Origin: Syntrophorhabdaceae bacterium
GTDB taxonomy: Bacteria; Desulfobacterota; Syntrophorhabdia; Syntrophorhabdales; Syntrophorhabdaceae
DNA length: 10,595 nucleotides
Assembly (NCBI GenBank): GCA_963666485.2
Contig: CAXXUO010000007.1
Span: 1-10,595 of the forward strand
Direction: 5' to 3'
Shown: positions 1 through 9,000 of the stretch, piece after piece
Layout: the number at the start of each line of letters is the position of its first letter
Numbering within the stretch: position 1 is the stretch's first letter
Position numbers: made by a program

Positions 1-3000
1 CTGCTGCTCTGGTTTCGCACATCACTGCCCCTGTCCATATTTCCAAAGGCCCCACCACCACGGTCCATTGATCCCGCACTCGGGCCTCCGCGGTCGCCTC
101 CTGCAGGCCGGGTCGACACGCCGGGACTGCCGCGATCACCTCCGCCCGGTCTTTCGCCTCCTGCAGGCCGGGTTGACGCACTCGGGCCTCCGCGGTCGCC
201 TCCTGCAGGCCGGGTTGACGCACTCGGGCCTCCGCGGTCGCCTCCTGCAGGCCGGGTTGACGCACCGGGACCCTGGCCGTCTCTTCCCCTGTACGCCTGA
301 CGGTCCTGGATCCCTTGCGCGGAACCGCCCCTGTTGTATTTTTGGGCGGTTGATTGATCACGATACGCCACACCCTTTCTGTTCTGAGGGTTGTGCTGCC
401 AGTTCTGCCCCGCCTGTCCCCCTTGCCTGTTGGCATATTGGGACCTGTTTATATTGGTGTTCCTGTTGATATTTGCATTTACGTCATAATGCATGGCATG
501 CGCACCCCAAGCCATGCTTCCCCATGCATAGCCCCATGCCGCGGTCAGTGCGACCCCTGCAGTGAATGCAAGTGCGGTCCCGGCGACGTACCCGGGCGGG
601 TAATAATAATACGGAGGGTATGACGGGTACGGCCAGGCCCCGTACACAACAGCCGGGTCGTAGGACGGGACGTAAACGTAGTTAGGGTTCGTGGGTTCAA
701 TAACGATCACTTTTTCCTGGACCTTGACCGTCTGCTCTTGCGTGCTCTTAAGGGTGCCCTGTGACTGCGCCTTTGCCCTCAACGATTGGATCGAATCGAG
801 CACTTCCGCCTGTTGTGCCAGCACCGCATCGCCGAGCTTCTGAGTCCAGTCCAGTTTCTCGTTCATCATCTTCAGGACATCGGGAAAGTTAACAAGCGAT
901 TTGACGCTCGGGTCCCAGCTCTGTTGTTCCAGGGCCTTTGCGAGCGCGTCGCCCTTGAGGTTCTTGTTCTGGTTCGTCCACCGATACGCCTGTACTATTT
1001 CAAGCGGATACGTGGAGGCCATCAGGACCTGTGCAATAAGTTCATCGGGATAAAGGGCAATAGGTGCGACGAGCTGGCTGATCTCTTCGGGTTTAAATGG
1101 CTTCGCCGACGGTCCCTGTGCCTGCTGGCTATACGCCGACGGGGGTATCACCAGGGATATAATACAGACAAGGATCAACCATGTGGTCAATACTTTTCGG
1201 CTCTTCATATCTACTCCTTTCTCTTGGTCAGCCGGCCGGCGGAACTAATTACCGGGCGGCATTGCTCGTGTTTTTTTGCCTGTCACCCCATCAGCCATGT
1301 GTGGGCTGACGCGATGCCCGGCAAAGGGAAAAATTGTACGGGCGCCCGGCGAAAATCAGCAGCACAGCATCAGATGGGTTTTCCATCCGGAATCGGCGGA
1401 AACGGCTATCTTGTCGATCAGGTCCCCGTACTGAATGAAGAACGAGACAATAAACGCGCGCATAATTCAATGGCCCCGCAAATTGATAATTAATATTATA
1501 TCTGATTTCACAGGCGCGCCAAGCCAAAAATTTGTCTTCGGGTCGAAATTTCTTCCCGTGTGAAACGGCAGTCGAACGTCAATGTTCACCCTTGCTCAAT
1601 TTCCCGGTACCAGCAAAGCGTCACGCCCCCGGCTCCTGAACAAGCCTCCCATTATAATTATTAGTCTTCCTCCTTGACTTGGAAATTTGTTTGGGTATAC
1701 AATATCACTATGATGAACGTGCAAATCAATAATTGGTGGTGGTGGCGGAAATACTAGGTGTGAGACCGTAATTTCCGGCCATGGGCGGTTTCACACCGTC
1801 CATGGCCGTTTTTGTTTTAGAAGGCCATGGGTCATTGGGACTCCTGGCCTTTTTTTATTACGCATAAGGAGGATACGATGGAAAAGAAGATATTTTTGAG
1901 TGACAGTGACATGCCGAAGGCATGGTACAACATACAGGCTGACCTGACGACGCCCCTGCCACCACCTCTTAACCCCGAGACAGGCGATCCTGTAACGCCG
2001 GACATGCTCGAGGCGATTTTTCCCATGAACCTTATCGAGCAGGAGGTCAGCACGGAGAGGTTTATCACGATACCCGACGAGGTTATGGAGCGCCTCCTTA
2101 TGTGGCGGCCCACGCCGTTATGTCGGGCCACGGCCCTCGAGAAATTTCTCGGTACCCCGGCCCACATTTACTACAAGAACGAAAGCGTGAGCCCCCCGGG
2201 CAGCCATAAGCCGAACACGGCTATTGCGCAGGTCTATTACAATAAAATGGCGGGGGTAAAAAGACTCACAACGGAAACAGGCGCCGGGCAATGGGGGAGT
2301 GCCCTGTCATTTGCGTGCAACCAGTTCGGGATGGAACTCAAGGTGTACATGGTCAGGGTGAGCTTCAACCAGAAGCCGTACAGGCGCATCATGATGGAAA
2401 CGTGGGGCGGGAAATGCGTGCCGAGCCCGAGTTCCGATACCGCTGCCGGCAGAAAATTCCTCGAAGGCAACCCGGACCACCCGGGCAGCCTCGGCATGGC
2501 GATATCGGAAGCGATCGAAGACGCGGTCACGTCACAAAACACAAAATACTCTCTCGGCTCCGTCCTCAACCATGTCCTCCTGCACCAGTCGGTCATCGGG
2601 CTCGAGGCACAGAAACAGCTTGCGTCCGTCGGGAAATACCCCGATGTCGTGATAGGGTGCGCAGGGGGCGGCAGCAATTTTGCCGGCATCTCTTTCCCCT
2701 TCCTCCGCGACAAGATCAACGGCAAAGAGGTTCGCGTGGTCGCGTCCGAGCCCACGTCGTGCCCGTCCCTCACGAAAGGGCGCTACGTCTATGACTTTGG
2801 CGATACGGCCGGCATGACGCCGCTCCTTCCCATGTATTCCGTGGGCCACGGTTTCGTTCCCGCCCCGATCCACGCAGGCGGCCTGCGTTATCACGGGATG
2901 GCCCCGCTCGTCAGCAGGGTCTTTGCGGACGGGCTTATCGAGGCGACATCGTACAATCAGATCGAGACGTTCTCCGCCGGCCTCATTTTCGCGAAAACGG

Positions 3001-6000: not shown

Positions 6001-9000
6001 AGAGGGTGTTTGAAAGCTATGGCGTGAAAAATGTCTTCGACATCAACGAGATAACCGAGCTTGCCCGGTTCAAGGATACGCAGGAACCCGTCGTCGCTCT
6101 CTACAGGGGTATGATATGAAACGCGAGATAGTCTGTGCCGGGATCGGGGGAAGAGGTGTCCTTCTTGCTTCGACCATATTAATAGAGGCGGCGATACAAA
6201 GCGGCATGAAAGCCATGGCATCCGACGAATACGGGATGTCCCAGAGGGGCGGGTCGGTCATATCGCTTGTCAAGGTCGGCGATTTTGCGAGCCCGTTCAT
6301 TGGCAGGGAGAATGGTGACATACTTCTTGCATTCGAGGAAAGCGAGTTCTATAAAACTCTTTTCTTTCTCAAGAAGGGCGGGCTTGCCCTCATCAACACG
6401 CCCGCCGCGGGGCTCGGCGCATCTGTTGAGGCCGTGCTGAAAGAAAGGCAGATATCATACCGCCTGATCGACGCCGACGGCATCGCCCGGGATGAAGGGA
6501 TGTTCCAGTCGGCAAATATGGCGCTTCTCGGGGCGTTCGCTTCTTTTGGGATCGAGCCCTTTACGCGGAATATTCTCGAAACAACCATCCGTTCCCGTGT
6601 TCCCGAAAAGTTCATGGCAAAGAATCTCGCTGTTTTTGAAAAGGGATATGAGGCGGCAAAAAGGCGAACAGTGAACGGTAAAAAGTAGGGAAGGGGCAAG
6701 GGTTATATGCAGAATAATCAACTACCACCTGCCGTCATCCCGGTGCTTGACACCGGGATCCAGTGTCTTTTCTTTGCTTCTTTGCCTCGGTTTCTACACA
6801 TTACGAGAAAGATGGAAAACCTTGGATCCCGGTGTCAAGCACCGGGATGACGATATCTGGTTAGGATTTGGATGTGGTAATGGTTTTATGCCATTATAAT
6901 CAGTGAGGGGTAAGACGTAATAAGTTCAGCCCCAGGGTTAATGGAGGTCTTGAAGTGGATATAAGGCAGGAAGTTGTCATAGGAAACCAGGCGATCGCAC
7001 GGGGCCTTGTCGAGGCGGGGCTCGAGATCGCTGCTGCATATCCCGGGACCCCGAGTTCCGAGATCCTCCCCGGTGTCGTTTATTTCAAGAACCGGGAAGG
7101 GTTGGCCATACATACCGAATGGTCGTCGAACGAACTGTGCGCGTTCGAGGTCGCCTTCGGGGCAGCGGCATACGGGGGAGTGCGCGCCGCGTGCTTCATG
7201 AAGCAGGTCGGTCTCAACGTTGCGTTCCCGGCACTGCTCAAGGCACGCGAAAAAGTTCTCGAGGGCGGACTGGTCATAGTCTCCTGTGACGATCCGGGCC
7301 CGCAGTCTTCCCAGACGGAGCAGGACACCCGTCTTCTCGCCGCTCTCTATGGCATCCCTGTTTTCGACCCGGCATCCCCCGGGGAAGCCGCCGATGTCGC
7401 GTATTATGCGCTCGACTGGTCCTTTAAAAATAAAGTCCCCGTCATTATTCGTTCGACCCACAGGGTGAGCCATGCCCGTCAATCAATTGACCTCTATAAA
7501 CCCGGTACGCGTGACGTCACACTGCGAGAGGGTGTCTGTGCAGGGGCGGGTCAAAAACTCGGGATCGTCGCATCGGGCATGAGTTATTCGCTCGTCAGCG
7601 ATGTTATCGAAGAACTGGGAGCGGGGAAAGATGTATCTGTTTACAAGGTCCTCAGGGTATACCCCCAGTCCGAAGATCTGAGCGATTTCGTCGTGTCCAT
7701 GGACGAGGTCCTCGTCATCGAAGAGACGGACATGGTCATCGAATCCCTCCTCGGGATGCGGCAGAAAGTGATGGGCAGGGCGGACGGCACGGTACCGTCG
7801 TCCGGTGAGATAACCTATGATATCGTGCGCGACATACTCTCCGGGATCTTACGGGAGATCGGCACGGTAAAGACCTTCGTTCCCGACACGGGCATCGAGG
7901 CGGCCCTTTCCGATATCGCCATCACACCGAGGCCGCCGAAGCTGTGTCCCGGGTGTCCCCATCGGGCATCGTTTTTCGCCATGCAGCATATCTGGCCGAA
8001 CGCGATCTACCCGGGGGACATCGGGTGCTACACCCTCGGGATCTCGCAGGGAGCTGTGGATACGTGCCTCGACATGGGGGCGGGTGTCACACTTGCCGAG
8101 GGATTTTACGACGCATTTTACCAGGACGGTAAACTCGTTCCCATCCTTGCTTCTGTCGGGGATTCGACATTCCTCCATGCCTGCCTTGCGCCGCTTTACG
8201 ACGCCGTAAAGAACCATAAGAGATTTATTCTTGTGCTCATGGACAACTCCACGACCGCCATGACGGGTATGCAGCCGACACCGCAGACGGGGGTTACGGT
8301 TGACGGCATTGCGACCCGTAGCGTCGCTATTGAAGATATCGTCAAGGGTCTTGGCGTGAAGTACTTGAAGATCGTCGATCCATACGATGTTTCCCTGACC
8401 ATAGGAACACTGAAAGATGCCTTCACATACCTGCAGGGCGACGATATGCTTCCGGCCGTTGTTATAACAAGGCGGGAGTGCCTTTTGCTGCAAAAGGGAA
8501 AGGCAAAGGATGCCGCGTACCCGGTCAGGCTCGAAGAAGGCTGCATCGGGTGCAAGAGCTGTTTCAGTACGTTCGACTGCCCGGCCATTTCCTTCGATGC
8601 GGATGCGAAAAAGATCAGGATCGATGACAGCATCTGCACGAACTGCGGGATATGCTATTTCGCATGTCCGGTTCAGCCCGAAGGCAAGGACCTGAAGAAA
8701 TTTAAAGAGTCCGGCAAAGCACAGTCAAAATAAGGAATTTAGATCCTTAAACATACGCGGTAAAAGGGGCGAGCGTGGGTTCCCGGGAAGATCGGGCGAT
8801 CACAGTATCTATCGTTATCATCACAAAAAGATACGAAGGAACTCCTGAAAGGCTGTCTCGCCTCCGTTCAAAGGGATGCATCCCTCCAGCTGCTTGGCAT
8901 CGAGACGATCATCATCGACAACGCATCGACAGACGGAACGGATTCCTTGGTGCAGCAGGAATTCCCGGATGCCGTCTATATACGCAACGAGGTCAATGCC

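What a model noticed while it worked through the whole genome (the two positions that open the first line are those of the whole stretch)
1878..8733. An aromatic degrader that deleted its whole aro-phe-trp superoperon and keeps a TrpB2/aromatic aminotransferase/IOR salv [...]
The genome has no shikimate, chorismate, Phe/Tyr or trpA-G genes. In a close congener these form one 13.5-kb block between homologues of g00665 and g00668, which here lie 1.2 kb apart inside C1 (696718-697907), so the loss is not an assembly gap. A trpB2 - aromatic aminotransferase - iorA/iorB/iorA cluster offers the methanogen-type route from indole and arylacetates to Trp, Phe and Tyr.
Evidence so far: Pfam audit: no DHQ_synthase, DHquinase, Shikimate_dh, SKI, Chorismate_synt, PDT, PDH, CM_2, Anth_synt, IGPS, PRAI, Trp_syntA. 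tblastn of the congener block finds no orthologue here, flanks 75-87% identical. aroC in only 39 of 77 order genomes >=90% complete, at different sites in congeners. Aminotransferase beside POR/IorB in 56 of 95 order genomes. MenA/MenG-like genes kept but no Men or Mqn ring pathway.
(Added by a program. Inside this text positions count along the whole contig: contig position 1 is position 1 of the stretch shown here. "Call 12" and the like, gene names such as g00115 and contig names such as C1 are that model's own, and its searches are not shown. The text may have been shortened before it was handed on; [...] marks where a part breaks off. The agent that wrote the report below was given it as the finding of a first reader that could run no searches.)

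Follow-up and report, generated by a model that had tools for sequence, protein, structure and literature searches.

The report
Starvation-switched aromatic amino acid salvage
This sludge bacterium, like about half of its relatives, cannot build aromatic rings from scratch; it carries gene switches that sense shortage of tryptophan, phenylalanine or tyrosine and sit in front of enzymes that probably rebuild these amino acids from aromatic waste left by other microbes.

Summary
The absence is real: this Syntrophorhabdus-like genome has no shikimate, chorismate, Phe/Tyr or trpA-G genes. aroC is in only 48 of 96 order genomes, against rpoB in 93. Loss is likely, because the sister species has the block. 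But the 1.2-kb site is not a deletion scar; it holds small genes shared with three congeners. The cassette is order-wide, prototrophs included, so it is not a compensation special to this genome.

New here: (1) A Trp attenuator (leader with four Trp codons, antiterminator, two terminators) precedes trpB2-ORF-aminotransferase-iorA'-iorB-iorA. It is in 29 of 33 order loci, 0 of 20 outside, and stays before the aminotransferase-IOR genes in several genomes that lost trpB2. (2) The genome's only other such leaders, poly-Phe and poly-Tyr, also precede aminotransferases. (3) The first 'iorA' is a cofactor-less, order-restricted pseudo-subunit, modelled as a partner of IorA; its frameshift is an assembly error. 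(4) An indoleacetate-degradation (iaa-like) operon supplies a candidate arylacetyl-CoA ligase, and this IOR subfamily sits in catabolic iaa operons elsewhere.

Best reading: starvation-induced salvage using a recruited catabolic IOR run backwards. The direction is inferred, not measured.

The parts
1674..1703 (+). sigma-70-like promoter (TTGACT-18-TACAAT) just before the leader
   Evidence: 10 of 12 consensus matches; such sites are as common in shuffles (8 vs 6.9), so only its position supports it
1710..1757 (+). Trp leader peptide, 15 aa with four tandem Trp codons
   Evidence: leader plus terminator in 29 of 33 Syntrophorhabdales trpB2 loci and 0 of 20 loci outside
1758..1769 (+). antiterminator segment pairing with 1786-1797 inside terminator 1
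   Evidence: duplex -20.2 kcal/mol; over 29 loci mean -21.9 vs -16.2 for shuffles, with 5 or fewer of 50 shuffles reaching it in 21 of 29 (134)
1775..1818 (+). intrinsic terminator 1 (14-bp stem, T run)
1822..1856 (+). terminator 2; its 5' arm can pair with the 3' arm of terminator 1 (-17.5 kcal/mol)
1878..3230 (+). trpB2, stand-alone tryptophan synthase beta-2
   Evidence: TIGR01415 663.8 bits, cut-off 518.85 (5); 82 of 96 order genomes
3540..3776 (+). 78-aa protein with four invariant Cys, follows trpB2 in several phyla; no family, no clear fold match
3778..4881 (+). class I aminotransferase, inferred Trp/indolepyruvate branch
   Evidence: PF00155 (4); nearest solved 1gd9 and 1dju 'aromatic aminotransferase'; 89 of 96 genomes
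4901..6119 (+). iorA': about 405-aa IorA paralogue without YPGTP, CxGCPH, GDIGC, GDS or ferredoxin motifs; one extra base at 5208 is an assembly error
   Evidence: full-length orthologues in 82 of 96 order genomes, none found outside the order
6116..6688 (+). iorB (POR domain III)
   Evidence: PF01558; best NCBIfam models are IorB but below cut-off
6718..6870 (.). palindromic dispersed repeat between iorB and iorA, absent from the closest relatives' 1-62-bp gap
6955..8733 (+). iorA with all catalytic and Fe-S motifs; divergent subfamily
   Evidence: TIGR03336 522.6 bits, below cut-off 650.9 (5); motifs invariant in 27 sequences; tree
8775..9708 (+). GT2 glycosyltransferase, conserved downstream neighbour, role unknown; 1-base assembly error at 8825
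3..1208 (-). DUF3300 gene, flank only; by synteny it continues into DUF2950 at the left end of contig C8
9930..10019 (+). tRNA-Ser(GGA), flank only

Best explanation
Syntrophorhabdales keep a chorismate-independent salvage system for aromatic amino acids, switched on by starvation for each one. This made the aro-phe-trp block dispensable, and G000's lineage lost it. When Trp-tRNA is scarce, the ribosome stalls in the leader, the antiterminator forms, and trpB2-ORF-AT-iorA'-iorB-iorA is transcribed (structure shown, function inferred). TrpB2 joins indole to serine or phosphoserine (inferred from family). The IOR, an IorA/IorA'/IorB complex with one dead alpha-like subunit (modelled), reductively carboxylates indoleacetyl-CoA to indolepyruvate, which the aminotransferase turns into Trp (inferred). 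Indoleacetyl-CoA most likely comes from the IaaB-like ligase of the iaa-like operon on C6 (inferred). Phe and Tyr are made by separate Phe- and Tyr-attenuated aminotransferases (C1:1175048-1177425, C6:62835-64073). Their keto acids come from arylacetyl-CoA carboxylation by this IOR or the canonical IorAB on C4, or are taken up as keto or hydroxy acids; this is the weakest step.
For: Of 1724 upstream regions, only three have a leader with a run of 4 or more of one residue plus a terminator, over 20 residue classes: W, F and Y. Each heads a class I aminotransferase gene or operon (families in 4, 55). The Trp leader is in 29 of 33 order loci and 0 of 20 outside, including the iaa-embedded cassettes. 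Where trpB2 was cleanly lost, a W-rich leader stays before the aminotransferase in 7 of 10 genomes; in 6 of those 7 iorA' follows it, and a terminator was called in 4 of the 7. The Phe leader is kept in 18 of 19 PDT-negative and 7 of 9 PDT-positive genomes with enough upstream DNA. The Tyr leader is kept in aroC-negative G016 and G022. The aro blocks use the same logic: Y/W/F leaders before aroF and WWW leaders before trpE. Gaps inside the cassette are mostly under 140 bp. Substrate: iorA'-iorB-iorA is co-operonic with iaa genes in G085, G087, G074 and G086; the ligase is in 83 of 96 genomes; the C6 acyl-CoA dehydrogenases carry the IaaF GGG motif (PMC8360864). No PadH-type phenylacetyl-CoA catabolism in genus g1 (0 of 19, plus G000). 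IorA+IorA' model: score 0.92, best of 3 controls 0.00; that mark was reached by 116 of 157 solved and 2 of 215 mismatched pairs; runs agree in at least 97% of contacts, partner pLDDT at least 88. It may pass by likeness to known OFOR dimers and was run on relative L041.
Against: No enzyme, transcript or labelling data. The same IOR subfamily sits in catabolic contexts: in Anaerolineae it lies with trpB2 and a SerK-like kinase inside iaa-like operons, with no ligase within the fetched 10 kb in 0 of 78 loci. In family f4, iorA'BA lies in the iaa operon without a Trp leader. G003 and G090 have trpB2 without a leader. No canonical PaaK in G000 and no ligase beside either IOR, unlike the Bacteroides arrangement described in PMC13285125. 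In G000 the cassette has a 310-bp gap after trpB2 and a palindromic repeat before iorA, so co-transcription is not certain. The Phe and Tyr aminotransferases could be the last steps of the lost pathway; the Tyr one was found in only 5 of 10 genomes tested. Four liv-type uptake systems exist. The trpA/trpB2 association is not significant (independent pairs, median p 0.5). No SerC-type gene was found for phosphoserine supply.
Confidence: 0.62

Rival explanations
1. Catabolic funnel: indole goes to Trp (TrpB2), then indolepyruvate (aminotransferase), then indoleacetyl-CoA (IOR), and into the iaa pathway to benzoyl-CoA. The organism gets Phe, Tyr and Trp otherwise.
For: iorA'BA is inside the iaa operon in four f4 genomes. 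trpB2-iorAB is embedded in iaa-like operons of Anaerolineae and Deltaproteobacteria, with SerK, SerA/SerC or NADH-linked modules. G000 has the iaa-like operon and the benzoyl-CoA ring-opening hydrolase. Earlier notes e1-7672044, e1-7688005 and e1-4903694 propose this for other genomes.
Against: A Trp attenuator turns the cassette off when Trp is plentiful, the opposite of catabolic logic. It is present here and absent from all 20 outside loci, and it stays before AT-IOR after trpB2 loss. Methanogenic indole degradation is reported to go through oxindole (PMC6221969).
Confidence: 0.15
2. Plain auxotrophy: amino acids, peptides or aryl keto/hydroxy acids are taken up. Only TrpB2 and the aminotransferases matter, and IOR is a bystander or a relic of the prototrophic ancestor.
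For: Four liv-type ABC systems. An MFS monocarboxylate transporter follows the Tyr-attenuated aminotransferase in G000. No canonical PaaK. G046 has lost the aminotransferase and the ligase and carries a decayed iorA, yet also lacks aroC.
Against: Uptake of finished amino acids needs no starvation-induced aminotransferase. The leaders are intact in aroC-negative genomes of several genera. IorA' and IorA are conserved in most aroC-negative genomes, even the 1.5-Mb G003. The MFS neighbour was not found in the 14 relatives' loci checked.
Confidence: 0.18
3. Artefact: the block is in an unassembled gap or was mis-binned.
For: 10 contigs; the site varies among relatives; most contig gaps were not examined.
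Against: 43 of 96 genomes lack aroC, trpA and PDT together, while rpoB is found in 93 and folP in 94. Three known sites are closed or nearly closed in G000: C1:696-699k, C2:358.2k, and upstream of trpB2, where C7 joins C8 by synteny.
Confidence: 0.05

Closest known systems
Aryl-acid pathway of methanogens (IOR-dependent; Porat et al. 2004 and Tersteegen et al. 1997, seen only as cited in PMC4162585 and PMC13285125)
   Same: IOR plus aminotransferase proposed to make aromatic amino acids from arylacetates.
   Different: Bacterial; no ligase beside the IOR; the IOR is of the iaa-linked subfamily and has a dead second alpha-like subunit; control is by amino-acid-specific attenuators; many species have no de novo route left.
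TrpB2 indole salvage (Thermococcus kodakarensis, Hiyama 2014 as cited in PMC11085991; Geobacter trpB2 in PMC2700814)
   Same: TIGR01415 member, no TrpA in the genome, Trp-starvation control.
   Different: Co-transcribed with an aminotransferase, a 4-Cys protein and an IOR.
iaa operon for anaerobic indoleacetate degradation (Aromatoleum aromaticum, Desulfatiglans anilini, Ferroglobus placidus; PMC8360864)
   Same: G000 C6:69-103 kb has a PaaK-like ligase, CoA-transferase, B12 mutase, GGG-motif acyl-CoA dehydrogenases, ETF, hydantoinase-like pair and Mo-hydroxylase; IOR is co-operonic with it in family f4.
   Different: No hydratase/dehydrogenase fusion or thiolase in the cluster (the names IaaCE, IaaIJK, IaaP, IaaA are recalled). 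No direct comparison with the A. aromaticum proteins was possible.
Ribosome-mediated attenuators of trp and phe operons (recalled, textbook)
   Same: Leader with tandem cognate codons, overlapping antiterminator, intrinsic terminator.
   Different: Tandem double terminator; they head salvage aminotransferases in a genome without the biosynthetic operons.
Bifidobacterium indole to Trp to indole-3-lactate route (PMC11085991)
   Same: Exogenous indole enters metabolism through TrpB.
   Different: Uses a TrpC-TrpB chimera, ends in an excreted acid, no IOR.

Membership tests
TrpB2 (TIGR01415) | score above curated cut-off | tested here: met
   663.8 vs 518.85 bits
TrpB2 (TIGR01415) | acts without TrpA on free indole | not testable with these tools
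   trpA is absent; activity not measured
IOR alpha (TIGR03336), window IorA | score above curated cut-off | tested here: not met
   522.6 vs 650.9 bits; the C4 paralogue passes at 688.5 (55)
IOR alpha (TIGR03336), window IorA | YPGTP, catalytic Glu, CxGCPH, GDIGC, GDS and two 4Fe-4S motifs (motifs recalled) | tested here: met
   invariant in 27 sequences
IOR alpha (TIGR03336), window IorA | arylpyruvate specificity | not testable with these tools
   inferred from gene context; PMC13290082 found no motif that predicts indolepyruvate use
IOR alpha, IorA' | ThDP/Mg, proximal Fe-S and ferredoxin motifs | tested here: not met
   0 of 5 motifs in all 23 rows of the IorA' clade (96); homology to IorA 99.9% probability; OFOR fold
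Methanogen/Bacteroides aryl-acid pathway | AMP-forming arylacetate-CoA ligase beside the IOR | tested here: not met
   none beside either IOR in G000; a ligase lies in the same operon only in family f4
Methanogen/Bacteroides aryl-acid pathway | a ligase able to activate phenyl-, hydroxyphenyl- and indoleacetate somewhere in the genome | tested here: inconclusive
   three PaaK-like proteins at 398, 250 and 128 bits vs cut-off 646 on TIGR02155
Methanogen/Bacteroides aryl-acid pathway | aryl acids replace the amino acids for growth | not testable with these tools
   needs culture
iaa operon (G000 C6) | IaaF-type acyl-CoA dehydrogenase with GGG in place of YEG | tested here: met
   motif from PMC8360864 section 15
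iaa operon (G000 C6) | ligase, CoA-transferase, B12 mutase and ETF clustered | tested here: met
iaa operon (G000 C6) | beta-oxidation genes (hydratase/dehydrogenase fusion, thiolase; recalled) in the cluster | tested here: not met
   no fusion homologue; thiolase only on C4 (119)
iaa operon (G000 C6) | orthology to the characterised A. aromaticum proteins | not tested
   those sequences were not obtained
Ribosome-mediated attenuator | short leader with tandem cognate codons | tested here: met
Ribosome-mediated attenuator | terminator with mutually exclusive antiterminator next to the leader stop | tested here: met
   (Trp leader only; not computed for the Phe and Tyr leaders)
Ribosome-mediated attenuator | read-through rises on starvation | not testable with these tools
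   needs reporter or RNA data

The most novel reading that the evidence does not exclude
An order of aromatic-degrading syntrophs recruited the IOR of the catabolic indoleacetate pathway into a Trp-attenuated operon and runs it backwards as an asymmetric IorA/IorA' pseudoenzyme pair. With Phe- and Tyr-attenuated aminotransferases, it builds all three aromatic amino acids from indole and arylacetates released by protein fermenters, which let about half of its species drop the shikimate pathway again and again.
Probability: 0.4. Interest if true: 0.82.

Novelty: new variant of a known kind. Interest (0 to 1): 0.7.

Why it matters
Missing shikimate genes are normally read as dependence on amino acids from neighbours. 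Here the regulatory DNA suggests the cell remakes the amino acids from aromatic waste, so auxotrophy calls for digester and sediment syntrophs may be wrong, and media for these mostly uncultured bacteria could need indole or arylacetates instead. The attenuators give a sequence-level way to tell anabolic from catabolic IORs, a distinction for which PMC13290082 found no protein motif. IorA' would be an unusual pseudo-subunit in the 2-oxoacid:ferredoxin oxidoreductase family. The iaa-like operon, whose ligase is in 83 of 96 genomes, points to indoleacetate as a core substrate of the order; my searches found no paper saying so.

Tried and rejected
'1.2-kb deletion scar': rejected, the segment is an alternative allele shared with G024, G027 and G030. 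'Cassette compensates for the loss': rejected, it is as common in prototrophs. 'iorA' is a pseudogene': rejected, a contig of run X1 lacks the extra base at 5208 (X3 breaks there, X4 does not cover it, X6 gave no reads) and relatives are intact. Alternative archaeal DHQ route: not found. Purely catabolic reading: my leading idea, lowered when the attenuator was found. trpB2 loss tracking trpA presence: trend only, not significant. Positive control for attenuators on other biosynthetic operons: none found in G000, so that control is missing; the first run had a slicing bug that hid leaders near the start codon and was redone. Fold of the 78-aa protein: best Z 4.0, no assignment; the Atlas gave only unnamed clusters. 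No close IOR structure in PDB by sequence. No RNA holder listed. Plasmid search for an annotated iaa operon gave only 44-47% hydantoinases. The ligase homolog search returned generic PaaK names. Earlier-findings look-ups returned nothing. Paper searches found nothing on aro loss, an iaa operon or IorA' in Syntrophorhabdales.

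
Full report
Setting. The window is the whole contig C7 of G000 (3.77 Mb, 10 contigs). The nearest named relatives are Syntrophorhabdus and Syntrophorhabdaceae records. G000 has the benzoyl-CoA ring-opening hydrolase above cut-off and benzoate-CoA-ligase-family genes, so 'aromatic degrader' is fair.

Absence. Family searches found no chorismate synthase, TrpA, PDT, chorismate-binding enzyme, DHQ synthase II, chorismate mutase II, prephenate dehydrogenase, shikimate kinase or MqnA/D. The EPSP and DAHP hits are MurA and KdsA. tblastn with congener blocks found no orthologues (its output was cut in the middle). 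Across 96 order genomes, aroC is in 48, trpA in 41 and PDT in 41, against rpoB 93 and folP 94; 43 lack all three. On an rpoB tree of 70 of the 96 genomes, aroC presence changes at least 21 times (the 26 left out had no rpoB fetched).

Loss or never had. G000 is sister to G025 with 100% bootstrap in the rpoB, flank and combined trees, and 78% in the cassette tree. G025, G017 and G030 carry a block of one type, and its tree groups them as the species tree does. Gene order aroF-B-D-EK-A-C-pheA-tyrA(-trp) recurs through the order. Loss in G000's lineage is therefore likely (about 0.8, my estimate), although block trees also show transfer between genera. The named site is not a scar: G000, G024, G027 and G030 share small ORFs there, while G025 and G017 share a block junction instead. 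The two alleles are interleaved on the tree, so where G000's ancestor held the block is unresolved. A second empty site is C2:358204-358268. In S. aromaticivorans UI (L023) the trp genes lie directly upstream of trpB2; in G000 that side joins C8 by synteny through DUF3300-DUF2950.

The cassette. trpB2, a 78-aa four-Cys ORF, a class I aminotransferase, iorA', iorB and iorA. It is order-wide: trpB2 82, aminotransferase 89, iorA' 82 and iorA-like 86 of 96. IorA' is homologous to IorA and has an OFOR fold, but lacks all five cofactor motifs; it keeps the Asn-Glu pair that aligns with IorA's invariant N59-E60. Full-length IorA' was found only in this order. The frameshift at 5208 is absent from a contig of run X1, which may be the source sample. 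A model of IorA with IorA' from relative L041 scored 0.92 against a best control of 0.00; that mark was reached by 116 of 157 solved and 2 of 215 mismatched pairs, runs agreed in at least 97% of contacts, and partner pLDDT was at least 88. Likeness to known OFOR dimers may explain the pass.

Substrate. G000 C6:69-103 kb is an iaa-like operon whose acyl-CoA dehydrogenases carry the GGG motif given for IaaF. Its ligase is in 83 of 96 genomes. In G085, G087, G074 and G086, iorA'-iorB-iorA follows the hydantoinase genes in that operon. Among 78 loci of the nearest full-length IorA relatives in other groups, 26 carry trpB2, 13 the hydantoinase pair, and none a PaaK-like ligase within the fetched flanks. 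Anaerolineae place a SerK/SbnI-like kinase gene between trpB2 and iorA. This ties the IOR subfamily to indolepyruvate/indoleacetyl-CoA and, outside this order, to catabolism. Three earlier AI notes on other genomes say the same; I saw them, and they are not independent support.

Direction. Upstream of trpB2 lie a promoter-like site, a 15-aa leader with four Trp codons (1710-1757), an antiterminator segment and two terminators. The strict pattern is in 29 of 33 named order loci and 0 of 20 outside; it is also in G001, G022 and G046 but not G003 or G090. In 10 genomes without trpB2 next to the aminotransferase, 7 keep a W-rich leader. Genome-wide, only three of 1724 upstream regions have a 4-residue run plus terminator: Trp here, Phe before two tandem aminotransferases (leader C1:1177521-1177595) and Tyr before another (leader C6:64238-64324). 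The Phe pair is in 92 of 96 genomes, with the leader in 25 of 28 scorable loci, 18 of 19 of them PDT-negative; 2 of the 30 loci had too little upstream DNA. The Tyr gene was in 5 of 10 genomes tested. Attenuation of this type marks genes needed when the amino acid is scarce (established knowledge, recalled). Aminotransferases kept under such control in genomes without chorismate imply another source of the keto acids.

What stays open. No activity or transcript was measured. The Phe/Tyr arm lacks a canonical PaaK; the canonical IorAB on C4 has no ligase or leader. IOR is reversible, and in family f4 it lies in the catabolic operon, so both directions may operate. Uptake remains possible.

Papers. 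Passages seen: PMC13768988, PMC4162585, PMC13285125, PMC6221969, PMC11085991, PMC2700814, PMC13290082. PMC8360864: passages, the introduction and part 1 of 2 of the discussion. No supplements were read; the species list behind that paper's IaaF tree could include this order. Porat 2004, Tersteegen 1997, Hiyama 2014, Ebenau-Jehle 2012 and Schuhle 2016 were seen only as citations. Phosphoserine use by TrpB2 is recalled, and is also named in an earlier AI note. Ten searches of an open-access library found no description of these features in Syntrophorhabdales; attenuators were not searched, and subscription journals are missing.

Verdict. The salvage idea gains strong regulatory support for Trp and moderate support for Phe and Tyr. 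It is a new variant of a known kind: interest 0.7.

Noticed in passing
G000 C1:1177521-1177595 (-) and C6:64238-64324 (-); loci L276, L278: Phe- and Tyr-rich leader peptides with terminators in front of class I aminotransferases; conserved in relatives.
   Followed up: yes
G000 C6:69000-103000; loci L286, L264, L287: iaa-like operon with a second Mo-enzyme (4-hydroxybenzoyl-CoA reductase-like), a class III aminotransferase and a saccharopine-dehydrogenase-like gene; the core is kept even in the 1.5-Mb genome G003.
   Followed up: partly
L103:8989-10062 (G025); L105:333-1405 (G017): The prephenate dehydratase domain is gone while the rest of the block is intact (mutase fused to TyrA in G025): Phe synthesis seems to erode first. 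G012, G018, G019, G032, G033 and G037 are also aroC+ and PDT-.
   Followed up: partly
L094:9621-10664, L096:8104-9159, L101:577-1602: A resolvase gene flanks the aro-trp block in G029, G031 and G018, hinting at mobility.
   Followed up: no
L030, L039, L040, L073 between iorB and iorA: Insert of a Vor-like oxidoreductase (delta, alpha, beta) with a PadH-like flavoprotein and no gamma subunit of its own; it may share IorB.
   Followed up: no
L453:6249-13564, L485: In Deltaproteobacteria the IorA is fused to a GltD-like NAD(P) module and preceded by NuoEF-like genes: a possible NAD-linked or bifurcating IOR.
   Followed up: no
L408, L409, L418 (Anaerolineae); L051: SerK/SbnI-like gene between trpB2 and iorA; in L051 serA, serC and a XylR/V4R regulator flank trpB2-iorAB.
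   Followed up: partly
L320 (G046): Aminotransferase and iorB are missing and iorA is decayed while iorA' and the Trp leader remain; this genome also lacks aroC and the iaa ligase.
   Followed up: no
G000 C1:1249463-1250185: folP is kept (94 of 96 genomes) although G000 has no chorismate-binding enzyme: the source of p-aminobenzoate is unexplained. Three UbiA-family genes have no ring-building pathway.
   Followed up: no
window 3540-3776: 78-aa four-Cys protein follows trpB2 in Nitrospirota, Desulfobacterota, Planctomycetota and others; confident model, no fold match.
   Followed up: partly
window 6718-6870; L013:8719-9100: Dispersed palindromic repeat (Rfam WsnRNA46 hit) inside the operon; a separate 133-bp unit is repeated three times at the C1 site.
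   Followed up: no
window 9930-10595: Downstream of tRNA-Ser, two sequence variants occur in the laid contigs and the stretch resembles C3:169626-170116 (91%): probably an integration site.
   Followed up: no
G048, G056, G063, G065: Second copies of iorA'; the G048 and G056 copies checked have no Trp leader, and the G048 copy lies beside the iaa operon.
   Followed up: partly
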